IMG/VR virus record: IMGVR_UViG_2667527582_000006
Direction: 5' to 3' (one strand)
From: a virus
Taxonomy: Duplodnaviria > Heunggongvirae > Uroviricota > Caudoviricetes
DNA: 20,040 bases
Program-made: the position numbers and the translations under genes
Notes under the pieces: model-generated
Database searches by the model: none
Told to the model about the DNA's origin: nothing
What the model saw: only the letters and a program-made list of their open reading frames with translations
In this document: positions 4,751 to 12,481 of the stretch, in pieces
Layout: the number at the start of each line of letters is the position of its first letter
Numbering within the stretch: position 1 is the stretch's first letter

Positions 4751-4808
4751 AAAAAGGGCGGCAGAGCAGTCACGGAGTAAAACTGATACCGCCAAACGTC
4801 ACCAGAAA
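4751..4808 (-). ncRNA. dicF: DicF small regulatory RNA
   Basis: Minus-strand sequence UUUCUGGUGACGUUUGGCGGUAUCAGUUUUACUCCGUGACUGCUCUGCCGCCCUUUUU matches remembered DicF, with a 3' U-tract; sits between ydfC and dicB as in Qin. Confidence 0.7.
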
Positions 4809-6704: not shown

Positions 6705-6935
6705 ATGAAAAAATCAGAAGTATTAGGCTATTTTGGCGGAGTTGTTAAAACAGCCGCAGCTCTAGGAACGTCAAAAACCACAGTCAGCATGTGGGGGGAA
6801 GAGGTTCCGTGGAAATGGGCGTTGCTAATTCAGGCAGTCACTGCCGGGGCGCTCAAATATGAGTTACACATACCGACGGTTGTCATTCCCGGTTCTGATC
6901 ATAATCCGCCTTCTAACCAAGGGGGGGATTCATGA
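6705..6935 (+). CDS. Cro-like HTH regulator (76 aa)
   Basis: MKKSEVLGYFGGVVKTAAALGTSKTTVSMWGEEVP... resembles P22-type Cro; GGAG 6 nt upstream; divergent from the repressor. Confidence 0.7.
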   Translation: MKKSEVLGYFGGVVKTAAALGTSKTTVSMWGEEVPWKWALLIQAVTAGALKYELHIPTVVIPGSDHNPPSNQGGDS

Positions 6936-7357
6936 AAATCAAGCATGAACACATCCGCATGGCGATGAATGCCTGGGCGCATCCGGACGGCGAAAAAGTA
7001 CCGGCTGCGAAAATTACCAAAGCGTATTTCGAGCTGGGAATGACGTTCCCGGAACTGTATGACGACAGCCATCCGGAAGCCCTGGCTCGCAATACCCAGA
7101 AAATTTTCCGCTGGGTAGAGAAAGACACCCCTGATGCAGTTGAAAAAATTCAGGCGTTGTTACCAGCGATCGAAAAGGCAATGCCACCTTTGCTGGTGGC
7201 CAGAATGCGCAGCCACAGTTCAGCTTATTTTCGGGAGCTGGTGGAGACGCGGGAGCGACTGGTGAGAGACGCTGATGATTTTGTCGCAGTGGCAATCGCC
7301 GGTTTCAATCAGATGAACCGTGGTGGCCCGGCAGGAAATGCTGTGGCAGTACATTGA
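6932..7357 (+). CDS. CII-like / YdaT-like regulatory protein (141 aa)
   Basis: ATG overlaps the cro stop (ATGA); G-rich SD; position after cro matches CII/YdaT of Rac-type immunity regions. Confidence 0.5.
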   Translation: MKIKHEHIRMAMNAWAHPDGEKVPAAKITKAYFELGMTFPELYDDSHPEALARNTQKIFRWVEKDTPDAVEKIQALLPAIEKAMPPLLVARMRSHSSAYFRELVETRERLVRDADDFVAVAIAGFNQMNRGGPAGNAVAVH

Positions 7358-10304: not shown

Positions 10305-10484
10305 ATGAAAAACGCATTGCAGTTTTTGTTTGTTGCGTTCTGGTTGTTCGTATCATGTATGCCCATCATCTTCACAGCAAGGTATATGGAAAAAGTTGAT
10401 GTTTTGATATTAATATTTGGATATATAAATGCCCTTTTTTTAGGGGTGTTCATGGCGGTCATGTGCATTGAATACTGGCGGTAA
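10305..10484 (+). CDS. Small hydrophobic membrane protein (59 aa, two predicted TM segments) in an AT-rich moron
   Basis: MKNALQFLFVAFWLFVSCMPIIF...LILIFGYINALFLGVFMAVMCIEYWR; strong AGGAGG SD; AT-rich surroundings. Confidence 0.5.
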   Translation: MKNALQFLFVAFWLFVSCMPIIFTARYMEKVDVLILIFGYINALFLGVFMAVMCIEYWR

Positions 10485-10629
10485 ATACAGCGAACGCCAT
10501 TGGTTTAGTTGGATATTTACTGTGCCGGACAAAAACGGTTTGCGGGGAAATCTTAGTTAAGTAGAATGACTGCGGGTGCTTGAGGCTATCTGTCTCAGGC
10601 ATGAACACCAAAAGGCAGATAGAGAAAAG

Positions 10630-10693
10630 CCCCAGTTAACATTACGCGTCCTGCAAGACGCTTAACATTAATCTGAGGCCATATCTATGCGAC
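10630..10693 (-). ncRNA. Putative Sok-like antisense RNA of the hok locus (extent approximate)
   Basis: Minus-strand promoter-like TTGACC (10729-10724), 18-nt spacer, TAATCT (10705-10700); the transcript would be antisense to the leader-ORF start region, as in hok/sok. Confidence 0.3.
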
Positions 10694-10746
10694 ACATAGA
10701 GATTAGCCTCTTACGGACCGAAAGGTCAAGGAGAAGCAGGCTATGA
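10687..10746 (+). CDS. Putative mok-like leader ORF (19 codons), translationally coupled to hok
   Basis: ATG at 10687; stop TGA overlaps the hok ATG (cuAUGA). Confidence 0.3.
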   Translation: MRHIEISLLRTERSRRSRL

Positions 10747-10898
10747 AGCAGCAAAAGGCGATGTTAATCGCCCTGATCGTCATCTGTTTAACCGTCATAG
10801 TGACGGCACTGGTAACGAGGAAAGACCTCTGCGAGGTACGAATCCGAACCGGCCAGACGGAGGTCGCTGTCTTCACAGCTTACGAACCTGAGGAGTAA
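10743..10898 (+). CDS. hokD: Hok-family type I toxin (HokD/RelF-like, 51 aa)
   Basis: MKQQKAMLIALIVICLTVIVTALVTRKDLCEVRIRTGQTEVAVFTAYEPEE: single TM helix and conserved Hok periplasmic tail with Cys. Confidence 0.85.
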   Translation: MKQQKAMLIALIVICLTVIVTALVTRKDLCEVRIRTGQTEVAVFTAYEPEE

Positions 10899-10966
10899 GA
10901 GACCTGGCGGGGGAGAAATCCCTCGCCACCTCTGATGTGTCAGGCATCCTCAACGCACCCGCACGT

Positions 10967-10993
10967 AACCCGCTTCGGCGGGTTTTGTTTTTT
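10967..10993 (+). terminator. Rho-independent terminator of the hok transcript
   Basis: CCCGC-TTCG-GCGGG hairpin followed by TTTTGTTTTTT. Confidence 0.7.
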
Positions 10994-11065
10994 CCTGGCA
11001 TTCTGGTTTACAATTCGCACGCCAGCCTGAACAACTGGCACCTGCTGCGCCAGCAGAGACAACCG

Positions 11066-11344
11066 ATGGCGCACGATACCAAATTACACAATTCTAATGA
11101 TTCTGCCGTCTTTGCCAGTAGGTGCGGACGGCGTTTTCACGCATTCAAATCAGACTGGTTCCAGCATCCTCCATGCACTGAAGAGCAGGCGGAATGGATA
11201 ATTCAGTGTTACCGCAGGCGCGGATACGAGGTTAAGAAAGCTCTTAGCCTCGACTACCGTCACTGGATAATCTCAGTCAGACTCCCTTACTCCGAACGCC
11301 CACCGCGTTCATCCCGCACATACCAGCAACGGATCTGGAGGTAA
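11066..11344 (+). CDS. Hypothetical small protein (rem-like position between hok and ydfU)
   Basis: ORF in frame with track ORF 10937..11344; the first ATG downstream of the hok terminator is at 11066; stop abuts the ydfU-like start. Confidence 0.45.
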   Translation: MAHDTKLHNSNDSAVFASRCGRRFHAFKSDWFQHPPCTEEQAEWIIQCYRRRGYEVKKALSLDYRHWIISVRLPYSERPPRSSRTYQQRIWR

Positions 11345-12459: not shown

Positions 12460-12469
12460 NNNNNNNNNN
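12460..12469. other. Assembly gap (10 N)
   Basis: Run of n characters in the sequence. Confidence 0.97.
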
Positions 12470-12481
12470 AATTCATATCAA

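What the first reader, a model, noticed from the sequence alone, without database searches (positions are those of the whole stretch)
10560..10995. hok/sok-type type I toxin-antitoxin locus embedded in the prophage, without relBE
A 51-aa Hok-family toxin (HokD/RelF-like) is preceded by a 19-codon leader ORF whose stop overlaps the hok ATG, and an antisense promoter-like element (TTGACC-18-TAATCT) faces the leader start. This is the architecture expected for mok/sok control. As I recall it, in K-12 Qin hokD follows relB-relE; here that position holds an AT-rich moron instead, so the toxin may be independently regulated and functional as a maintenance or abortive-infection module.
Basis: partly seen in the sequence, partly recalled or inferred. 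Interest (0 to 1): 0.5.

Follow-up and report, generated by a model that had tools for sequence, protein, structure and literature searches.

The report
Intact hokD-type hok/mok/sok toxin-antitoxin cassette
This is a complete copy of a well-known small "host-killing" toxin gene with its antisense-RNA antidote, carried by a lambda-like prophage of E. coli; it is very common, and a 92%-identical phage copy has already been characterised experimentally, so the finding is correct but ordinary.

Summary
Window 10540-10993 holds a complete hokD/hokW-type hok/mok/sok type I toxin-antitoxin cassette. It has a 51-aa Hok toxin identical to K-12 HokD, and a leader that matches Rfam "sok" RF01794 at 106.7 bits. 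It has a 19-codon mok ORF whose TGA overlaps the hok ATG. The antisense Sok promoter sits where the sokW -10 was mutated experimentally. All four fold-switch elements (tac, fbi, ucb, dcb) are present and pair as in plasmid R1. tac/fbi complementarity is kept by compensatory changes across diverged loci.

At least 80% of the 531-nt query is present in 3799 of 5426 complete E. coli genomes. Phage 933W annotates the same cassette as mokW/hokW/sokW. Takada et al. 2021 showed that hokW-sokW is a working type I TA that aids phage release on induction.

K-12 is the exception: relBE replaces everything upstream of the hok Shine-Dalgarno sequence.

The one local peculiarity is the short mok. It is a widespread allele (at least 120 IMG/VR contigs). 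It satisfies the published requirement that mok be translated only as far as the hok start.

Interest is low.

The parts
10540..10567 (+). Putative hok promoter: TTGCGG (10540-45), 16 nt, TAGAAT (10562-67)
   Evidence: Read from the sequence. The -10 lies 7 nt upstream of the base where the Rfam model and the R1 mRNA begin. Homology between independent loci starts at about 10554 or 10531. The consensus match is weak (8/12) and the scan did not report it. Inferred.
10574..10993 (+). Predicted full-length hok (mok-hok) mRNA, about 420 nt
   Evidence: The 5' end is set by the first position of Rfam RF01794 and alignment to the R1-type locus. The 3' end is the intrinsic terminator. MFE -175.2 kcal/mol, z=-7.7.
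10574..10585 (+). tac (translational activator) element GGGUGCUUGAGG
   Evidence: Pairs with fbi in the full-length MFE. Pairs with ucb in the leader-only MFE, in the Rfam consensus and in the RNAalifold consensus of 99 leaders.
10627..10633 (+). ucb / anti-SD of mok (AAGCCCC)
   Evidence: In the full-length MFE 10629-10635 pair with the mok SD region 10673-10679. In the open form 10627-10633 pair with tac.
10625..10693 (-). Predicted Sok antisense RNA, about 69 nt: single-stranded 5' end, long hairpin, U-rich tail
   Evidence: Positional equivalent of the annotated 71-nt sokW of phage 933W. Folds at -33 kcal/mol, z=-5.7 for the 80-nt stretch, and -29.3 for the 69-mer. Complementary to the mok SD and start codon. 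No transcript data for this locus.
10700..10729 (-). Sok promoter: TTGACC (10729-24), 18 nt, TAATCT (10705-00)
   Evidence: Unique exact match, reached by 0 of 100 shuffles. The -10 is at the position whose mutation (primers YO-421/422) abolished sokW protection in PMC8621323.
10675..10678 (+). mok Shine-Dalgarno sequence GAGG
   Evidence: Lies 8 nt before ATG 10687. Sequestered by ucb in the closed form and paired with dcb in the open form.
10687..10746 (+). mok leader ORF, 19 codons plus TGA that overlaps the hok ATG
   Evidence: Translation. Allele survey. The requirement that mok be translated only up to the hok start comes from PMC9841398.
10706..10710 (+). dcb (GCCUC), partner of the mok SD in the open conformation
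   Evidence: Constrained fold. The SD:dcb pairs are recovered in the consensus of 99 leaders and in the Rfam structure.
10728..10733 (+). hok Shine-Dalgarno sequence AAGGAG
   Evidence: Lies 9 nt before the hok ATG. Partly paired in the full-length MFE. K-12 homology begins here.
10743..10898 (+). hok (hokD allele) CDS, 51 aa
   Evidence: Pfam PF01848 at 1.2e-23. Annotated hokD, WP_000813254.1.
10904..10927 (+). 10-bp GC-rich stem-loop, probable 3' end of the processed (truncated, translatable) mRNA
   Evidence: Present in both the full-length and the truncated MFE. Its role is inferred by analogy with R1 (PMC9841398).
10948..10960 (+). fbi (fold-back inhibition) element CCUCAACGCACCC
   Evidence: Pairs with tac as 12 bp plus a 1-nt bulge. 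It is the best complement to the 5' 12-mer in the whole window, and 2 of 1000 shuffles reach it. Covaries with tac across loci.
10967..10993 (+). Intrinsic terminator of the hok mRNA (AACCCGC-TTCG-GCGGGTT plus a T-run)
   Evidence: The only terminator-like site found in 10400-11100.

Best explanation
Window 10540-10993 is a complete, probably functional hok/mok/sok type I toxin-antitoxin cassette of the hokD/hokW lineage. It lies in the early-right (nin-like) region of a Qin/DicF-type lambdoid prophage of E. coli.

Proposed mechanism, by homology with R1 hok/sok and Sp5 hokW-sokW:
1. A weak constitutive promoter makes a stable mRNA of about 420 nt.
2. The 5' tac pairs with the 3' fbi, and the mok Shine-Dalgarno sequence (SD) is held by the upstream anti-SD (ucb). 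The full-length mRNA is therefore inert to both ribosomes and Sok.
3. Slow 3' trimming removes fbi. tac then pairs with ucb, and the mok SD moves into the target hairpin with dcb.
4. The mRNA is now either bound by the abundant, unstable Sok antisense RNA of about 69 nt (made from TTGACC-18-TAATCT on the opposite strand) and destroyed, or, if Sok has decayed, translated.
5. Ribosomes translate the 19-codon mok through the hok SD, terminate at the AUGA overlap and start hok.
6. The 51-aa Hok inserts into the inner membrane and kills or permeabilises the cell.

The trigger is any event that stops Sok supply. For the close homologue this is prophage induction, where Hok speeds lysis and raises phage yield. 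Loss of the prophage (addiction) or host transcription shut-off by an infecting phage are other possible triggers.

Shown here: the sequence elements, their complementarities, their conservation and covariation, and family membership. Inferred: transcript ends, 3' processing, Sok instability, toxicity of this allele in its own context, and the biological role.
For: - Toxin: Pfam HOK_GEF at 1.2e-23. The protein is identical to K-12 HokD. The HokD CDS is listed among previously characterised toxic controls in bioRxiv 10.1101/2025.08.07.668861.
- Leader: Rfam RF01794 at 106.7 bits against a gathering score of 59, covering the full model 1-157.
- Closed form: the full-length MFE pairs 10574-85 with 10948-60 and ucb with the mok SD, z=-7.7.
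- Open form: the leader-only MFE and the consensus of 99 unique leaders give tac:ucb, an inner stem with compensatory changes (AU 66, UA 18, GC 4, GU 8) and SD:dcb. The truncated mRNA with tac:ucb enforced is only 0.5 kcal/mol above its MFE.
- tac/fbi covariation in 39 unique loci from Escherichia, Photorhabdus, Kluyvera, Enterobacter and others: U-A in 13, C-G in 20, wobble in 2, mismatch in 2. GAGA/UCUC and GAAG/CUUC variants also occur.
- Sok: the promoter is unique in the window. It is positionally identical to the sokW -10 that was mutated experimentally. The antisense strand folds into a hairpin with a U-tail, z=-5.7.
- mok: R1 mutagenesis shows translation is needed only up to the hok start (PMC9841398). 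The exact 19-codon allele occurs in at least 120 IMG/VR contigs.
- Homologue function: hokW-sokW (92% identical) is a proven type I TA. Sok was detected by northern blot, and HokW was made on RecA-dependent induction. Deleting the locus halved phage release (PMC8621323).
- Cassette boundaries: homology between unrelated contexts starts at the promoter and ends at the terminator.
Against: - There are no expression or toxicity data for this allele in this context.
- Both promoters are weak consensus matches (8/12), and the generic scan found none. It also missed the Sok terminator.
- The unconstrained MFE of the truncated mRNA gives the 5' metastable hairpin rather than the tac:ucb stem.
[quoted passage not shown] An intact architecture therefore does not guarantee activity.
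- Codon 47 is Tyr in a UACG context. According, hokC/D/E mRNAs are edited at this site to Cys, so toxicity may depend on TadA editing.
- The prophage itself is partly decayed: the integrase and the Cro/CI-family regulator gene are frameshifted in the identical RefSeq record. A role in phage release may therefore be moot in this host.
Confidence: 0.9

Rival explanations
1. The cassette is structurally intact but physiologically silent. It would be a selfish passenger kept by linkage and by RNA-level constraints. It would never produce enough Hok to matter, as reported for the chromosomal hokA, hokB and hokC loci, or its weak toxicity would depend on A-to-I editing.
For: Chromosomal hok loci failed in post-segregational killing and rifampicin tests (summary). 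Codon 47 is Tyr in a UACG context rather than a hard-coded Cys. Both promoters are weak. The host prophage is partly decayed.
Against: All regulatory elements are kept by compensatory change. The cassette is present in about 70% of complete E. coli genomes, often in several copies. The 92%-identical hokW-sokW is active from a single-copy prophage. R1 hok is toxic from a single chromosomal copy when Sok is removed.
Confidence: 0.2
2. The 19-codon leader is a frameshifted, defective mok. A 2-nt loss and a 1-nt gain relative to other alleles would uncouple hok from translation, making this a dead allele.
For: The commonest allele in the sample has a 57-nt offset, giving an in-frame 70-aa Mok-Hok. 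One locus has the R1-like 58-nt offset. This allele, at 56 nt, is in the minority: 12 of the 80 IMG/VR loci sampled.
Against: The ORF still runs through the hok SD and stops exactly on the hok ATG (AUGA), the classic termination-reinitiation arrangement. In R1, stops beyond the hok start do not impair Hok, and only stops upstream do. The allele is identical in at least 120 viral contigs, with an intact hok CDS. The SD, start codon, target hairpin and Sok promoter are all retained.
Confidence: 0.05
3. The main role is defence or addiction rather than lysis help. Hok would be released when an infecting lytic phage shuts off host transcription (abortive infection or exclusion), or when the prophage is lost (post-segregational killing). 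This is what the first reader proposed.
For: R1 hok/sok on a high-copy plasmid reduced T4 plating by 42% and plaque size by about 85% (cited). Hok genes are about four-fold enriched in prophages. The mechanism responds to any stop in Sok synthesis.
Against: hok genes are not enriched near defence systems. The only experiment on a prophage copy showed a benefit to the phage on induction, not defence. Nothing here tests either role.
Confidence: 0.3

Closest known systems
hokW-mokW-sokW of Stx2 phage 933W / Sakai prophage Sp5 (AF125520; Takada et al. 2021, PMC8621323)
   Same: About 92% nucleotide identity over 10531-10962. The leader, tac, ucb, dcb and fbi are the same, as are the extended Sok hairpin and the Sok promoter position. 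The toxin is 51 aa and differs only at the C-terminal end (…AVFVDYESEK against …AVFTAYEPEE). It is carried by a lambdoid prophage.
   Different: mokW is in frame with hokW (57-nt offset, 70-aa fusion). Here the offset is 56 nt and mok stops on the hok ATG. The Sok promoter hexamers are TTGCCT/TAACCT there and TTGACC/TAATCT here. The mok codons 2-6 / Sok 5' patch differs. In 933W the terminator differs and the locus lies near the right end of the phage genome, whereas here it lies between the replication genes and DUF968-RusA-Q.
hokD (relF) of E. coli K-12 Qin prophage, third gene of relB-relE-hokD
   Same: Identical Hok protein (WP_000813254.1). The CDS, 3' UTR, fbi and terminator are 98.5% identical. 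Downstream neighbours are similar (DUF968/ydfU, then an antiterminator).
   Different: K-12 lacks everything upstream of the hok SD: the promoter, tac, ucb, mok, the Sok target and the Sok promoter. relBE is fused 14 nt before the ATG. From my own recollection of Pedersen & Gerdes 1999, the K-12 copy is regarded as inactivated by rearrangement. This window holds the intact form.
hok/sok (parB) of plasmid R1 and IncF plasmids
   Same: Same gene order and the same RNA logic: tac/fbi, ucb/dcb, a mok of 19 codons before the hok ATG, a Sok promoter inside mok, and fbi about 50 nt after the stop codon. Both belong to the same Rfam and Pfam families.
   Different: Only 43% protein identity, and the DNA is too diverged for blastn. 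The R1 mok is 70 codons, out of frame, and overlaps almost all of hok. The R1 leader has a longer first hairpin and lacks the 16-17-nt extension of the Sok hairpin. At position 4 of tac the pair is C-G, not U-A. R1 hok/sok is plasmid-borne and is a proven post-segregational killing system.
hokC/mokC (gef) chromosomal locus
   Same: 82% protein identity. tac is identical and fbi is nearly identical (CUUCAACGCACCC). The leader plan is the same.
   Different: Its Sok hairpin is shorter. It sits at a fixed chromosomal site next to dnaJ, not in a prophage.

Membership tests
[quoted passage not shown] | Small (about 50 aa) Hok/Gef membrane toxin with an N-terminal TM helix and the conserved TRK-LCE-R-G-EVA-F-YE core | tested here: met
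   Pfam HOK_GEF at 1.2e-23, covering profile positions 1-42 of 42. All 18 invariant columns shared with HokW, HokC and R1 Hok are present.
[quoted passage not shown] | hok mRNA leader with the conserved sequence and structure (tac stem, Sok target hairpin) | tested here: met
   RF01794 at 106.7 bits against a gathering score of 59, full-length match at 10574-10745. The consensus fold of 99 leaders recovers the same stems.
[quoted passage not shown] | Leader ORF (mok) that starts upstream and is translated through the hok SD, so that hok translation is coupled to it | tested here: met
   The 19-codon ORF 10687-10746 reads through AAGGAG and ends in an AUGA overlap. It is shorter than the canonical 68-70 codons, but it meets the experimentally defined requirement. 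Coupling itself was not measured.
[quoted passage not shown] | Antisense Sok gene: a promoter inside mok on the opposite strand, and an RNA of about 65-70 nt complementary to the mok translation initiation region | tested here: met
   The promoter-like element at 10729->10700 is unique in the window. It is homologous to the mutated sokW -10. The hairpin with a U-tail has z=-5.7. This is met at the sequence level only, because the transcript was not observable with these tools.
[quoted passage not shown] | Long-range 5' tac / 3' fbi pairing that locks the full-length mRNA | tested here: met
   12 bp plus a bulge between 10574-85 and 10948-60 in the MFE. 2 of 1000 shuffles reach this energy. Compensatory U-A and C-G changes occur across 39 loci.
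[quoted passage not shown] | Alternative ucb:mok-SD (closed) and tac:ucb plus SD:dcb (open) pairings | tested here: met
   Closed form in the full-length MFE. Open form in the leader MFE, the Rfam consensus and the alignment consensus. The open form is 0.5 kcal/mol above the MFE of the truncated RNA.
[quoted passage not shown] | Toxicity of Hok, neutralisation by Sok, a stable mRNA and an unstable antisense RNA | not testable with these tools
   Literature only. The HokD CDS is listed among previously characterised toxic controls in the preprint. hokW-sokW was shown to be a TA pair.
K-12-type relB-relE-hokD (relBEF) operon | relB and relE immediately upstream, with hokD lacking its own leader, mok and sok | tested here: not met
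   No relB or relE in the identical annotated region. A full leader is present. K-12 homology begins only at 10729.

The most novel reading that the evidence does not exclude
Among prophage cassettes that encode the very same HokD protein and have an almost invariant CDS, the most variable patch inside the transcript body is 10684-10693. This is the mok start with codons 2-3, which is also the 5' recognition end of Sok. The same loci use all three possible mok reading frames.

The most novel reading not excluded is that this patch is under diversifying selection, which would make the Sok/hok pairs of co-resident prophages mutually orthogonal. Each prophage would then keep its own private antidote, and the Mok peptide would be irrelevant. 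The 19-codon AUGA allele seen here would be one of these specificity alleles.
Probability: 0.3. Interest if true: 0.35.

Novelty: already known. Interest (0 to 1): 0.1.

Why it matters
It matters little as a discovery. The locus type has been annotated since the 933W genome record (mokW/hokW/sokW). A 92%-identical copy was characterised in 2021, and the family was catalogued in a 2025-26 preprint.

Its practical value is for annotation. RefSeq labels only the hokD CDS here, so the mok ORF, the Sok RNA and the cis elements can now be placed to the base. The locus also shows that the textbook K-12 relBE-hokD arrangement is the truncated exception.

A modest point of interest is that natural alleles with three different mok frames give an in vivo confirmation that only the first 19 mok codons matter.

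Tried and rejected
- The generic sigma-70 and terminator scan of 10400-11100 found no promoter and only the hok terminator. It therefore gives no independent support for Phok, Psok or the Sok terminator.
- Plasmid R1 (KY749247) is not in the plasmid collection. I used an R1-type sequence recalled from memory, checked that it is 100% identical to more than 2600 IncF plasmids, and fetched p1658/97 in its place.
- Distant blastn of the locus against plasmids did not reach R1-type hok/sok, because the DNA is too diverged.
- The unconstrained MFE of the 3'-truncated mRNA did not give the open tac:ucb form. A first constrained fold used coordinates off by one and was redone.
- RNAalifold on 99 leaders did not recover the Sok-target hairpin around the mok ATG. 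Indels in that hypervariable patch break the alignment.
- Coding status of the upstream 59-aa ORF remains undecided. There were no Pfam or PHROG hits. It is intact in 17 loci, but every substitution is nonsynonymous (0 synonymous, 1-5 nonsynonymous).
- Chance was considered and rejected (Rfam E=1e-23).
- A relBE remnant was considered and rejected, since none is annotated.
- A defective mok was considered and judged unlikely.
- I did not use the large protein-database searches, structure prediction or fold search, because the protein is identical to a named one.

Full report
**1. The observation.**
- ORF 10743-10898 (+) gives a 51-aa protein. It matches Pfam HOK_GEF at E=1.2e-23 over the whole profile and PHROG 251 'MokW-like host killing'.
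- ATG 10687 opens a 19-codon ORF, MRHIEISLLRTERSRRSRL. Its TGA (10744-46) overlaps the hok ATG (10743-45).
- On the minus strand, TTGACC (10729-24), 18 nt, TAATCT (10705-00) is the only such match in the window. None of 100 shuffles contained one.
- The generic promoter scan did not flag it or any other promoter, because both candidate promoters match the consensus at only 8 of 12 positions.

**2. Where the window comes from.**
The 531 nt around the locus are 100% identical to E. coli FDAARGOS_536. In the annotated neighbourhood the genes on one side run from a frameshifted integrase and an exonuclease through dicB/ydfABC. A DicF RNA lies at window 4756-4807. A repressor/Cro pair, a replisome organiser and small ORFs follow. 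Next comes hokD, then a hypothetical gene, DUF968, RusA, the antiterminator Q, tRNAs, the lysis genes and terminase. This is a Qin-like lambdoid prophage, and hok lies in the nin-like region, on the same strand as the early-right genes. No relB or relE is annotated.

**3. What the locus is.**
- Rfam's 'sok' model RF01794, which models the hok leader on the sense strand, matches 10574-10745 end to end at 106.7 bits against a gathering score of 59 (E=1e-23). The match includes a 16-17-nt insertion that lengthens one hairpin.
- The same cassette is annotated in phage 933W as mokW, hokW and sokW (71 nt, antisense). Transferring the sokW coordinates places Sok here at about 10693->10625.
- That antisense stretch folds into a long hairpin followed by CUUUU. 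The 80-nt stretch has z=-5.7 and the 69-mer folds at -29.3 kcal/mol.

**4. The fold-switch elements.**
I mapped them against the R1 model as restated by Le Rhun et al. (PMC9841398).
- *Full-length RNA (10574-10993).* The MFE is -175.2 kcal/mol, z=-7.7. It pairs tac GGGUGCUUGAGG (10574-85) with fbi CCUCAACGCACCC (10948-60). It also pairs the anti-SD/ucb (10629-35) with the mok SD region (10673-79). This is the closed, inert form.
- *Leader alone.* It folds into the tac:ucb stem (10574-81 with 10627-33), which is the Rfam consensus.
- *3'-truncated RNA.* With that stem enforced it is only 0.5 kcal/mol above its MFE, and the mok SD then pairs with dcb GCCUC (10706-10). This is the open form.
- *Caveat.* The unconstrained MFE of the truncated RNA instead shows tac in a local 5' hairpin, which resembles the described metastable structure.
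- *Specificity of fbi.* It is the best complement to the 5' 12-mer anywhere in the 20-kb window (-21.1 against -16.8 kcal/mol). Only 2 of 1000 shuffles of the downstream 150 nt reach that energy.

**5. Conservation and covariation.**
I fetched 80 loci from species-representative genomes with a Hok alignment. I added an R1-type plasmid locus and hokC.
- In 39 unique 5'/3' combinations the complement to the 5' end lies 37-66 nt after the stop codon, and at 45-61 nt in all but two loci that look degenerate.
- Position 4 of the mRNA covaries with its partner: U-A in 13, C-G in 20, wobble in 2 and mismatch in 2.
- Photorhabdus loci have GAGA/UCUC, and one Citrobacter locus has GAAG/CUUC.
- Choosing the partner by best duplex is partly circular. 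The near-constant position and the alignable flanks argue for homology.
- RNAalifold on 99 unique leaders recovers tac:ucb, the inner stem (one pair shows AU 66, UA 18, GC 4, GU 8) and SD:dcb.

**6. The short mok.**
Among 80 IMG/VR loci that encode the identical HokD protein:
- the commonest mok-to-hok offset is 57 nt, which gives an in-frame 70-aa Mok-Hok as annotated in 933W;
- 12 loci carry exactly this window's 56-nt allele;
- 2 are the K-12 relE-fused type.

A Rac-like phage record has the R1-like 58-nt offset with a 68-codon overlapping frame.

R1 mutagenesis showed that stops in mok upstream of the hok start abolish Hok and stops beyond it do not. The first 19 mok codons are the ones upstream. 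A 19-codon mok that ends in AUGA on the hok start therefore meets the known requirement and is a standard termination-reinitiation arrangement. I consider a 'broken mok' unlikely (0.05).

**7. Comparison with K-12.**
In a K-12 strain relB-relE directly precede hokD. K-12 matches this window only from 10729 onward. K-12 thus lacks the promoter, tac, ucb, mok, the Sok target and the Sok promoter.

By contrast, at least 80% of the 531-nt query, which includes the leader, is present in 3799 of 5426 complete E. coli genomes. The median is 2 places per genome and the maximum is 10. Copies also occur on plasmids. The relBE-less state is the rule.

Between unrelated contexts, homology begins at about 10531 or 10554 and ends at about 10962 to 10992. 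That span runs from promoter to terminator, so the cassette moves as a unit.

**8. Function.**
Nothing here measures function. The published evidence is as follows.
- Takada et al. 2021 (PMC8621323) showed that HokW is toxic and that sokW transcribed from its own promoter protects. RNase III and Hfq contribute partly.
- In the same study sokW RNA disappeared after mitomycin C, and HokW then appeared in a RecA-dependent way, about an hour before endolysin. Deleting the locus delayed growth arrest and halved phage release.
- The HokD CDS is listed among previously characterised toxic controls, and hok genes are about four-fold enriched in prophages but not near defence systems (bioRxiv 10.1101/2025.08.07.668861).
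- The chromosomal hokA, hokB and hokC loci were inactive in classical post-segregational killing tests. R1 hok/sok partly excluded T4.

I therefore rate the identity and RNA mechanism of the locus at about 0.9. The biological role stays open among lysis helper, addiction and defence. 'Silent passenger' is a real alternative at about 0.2.

**9. Verdict.**
The novelty class is 'already known'. Interest is 0.1.

Noticed in passing
window 4756-4807 (-): DicF antisense sRNA, Rfam RF00039 at 76.7 bits with a full-length match. It sits next to dicB/ydfABC homologues and marks the prophage as Qin/DicF-type.
   Followed up: partly
window 10305-10484 (+): Unannotated 59-aa, very hydrophobic ORF (MKNALQFLFVAFWLF…CIEYWR) with an AGGAGG SD. 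It lies in a 35-37% GC island directly upstream of the hok promoter. It has no Pfam or PHROG match. The segment is present in the same position upstream of hok in roughly 17 of the 80 IMG/VR loci sampled. The ORF is always intact, but every substitution seen is nonsynonymous (0 synonymous, 1-5 nonsynonymous), so whether it codes for a protein is unresolved.
   Followed up: partly
window 10881-10884 (+): The Tyr47 codon of hok lies in a UACG context (TAC-G), the TadA recognition motif. The 2025-26 Hok preprint says that hokC, hokD and hokE mRNAs are A-to-I edited at this Tyr to give the second Cys needed for a disulfide. Full toxicity of this Hok may therefore depend on RNA editing.
   Followed up: partly
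window 10684-10700 and loci L006-L085: In 70 unique cassettes that encode the identical HokD protein, sequence diversity within the transcript body peaks at the mok start / Sok 5' end (0.75 bits per column), while the CDS is nearly invariant (0.08 or less). Pairing of the small hairpin appears, by eye, to be maintained with different sequences. This may reflect diversification of antisense specificity.
   Followed up: partly
window 10644-10660: A 16-17-nt insertion relative to the Rfam consensus (GCGUC-CUGCAA-GACGC) extends the hairpin that is the Sok terminator stem on the other strand. It is flanked by the direct repeat TTAACATTA. It is shared by hokD/hokW-type loci and absent from hokC, Photorhabdus and R1-type loci.
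   Followed up: partly
window 10967-10993 (+): The hok terminator lies inside the rightward early gene block, between the replication genes and DUF968-RusA-Q, on the same strand. It could act like a nin-region tR terminator. Conversely, read-through from the early promoter on induction would run head-on into the Sok promoter. Both ideas are speculative.
   Followed up: no
window 12462-12471: A run of 10 N (masked bases) inside the RusA-family gene.
   Followed up: no
L096, L106, L113, L148-L150: Hok loci turn up on contigs of assemblies labelled Veillonella parvula MAG, Acinetobacter idrijaensis, Xanthomonas pisi, Ferruginibacter MAG, Streptomyces morookaense and Oscillibacter MAG. L096 and L113 encode HokD identical to the window over the matched residues, L106 is 96% identical, and L148-L150 carry an R1-type Hok. 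This is most likely enterobacterial or plasmid contamination or mis-binning rather than real distribution.
   Followed up: no
L003 1-928 and 6226-6469 (window about 480-1407 and 6705-6948): In the identical RefSeq record the prophage integrase and a Cro/CI-family regulator are annotated as frameshifted pseudogenes. The prophage may therefore be defective.
   Followed up: no
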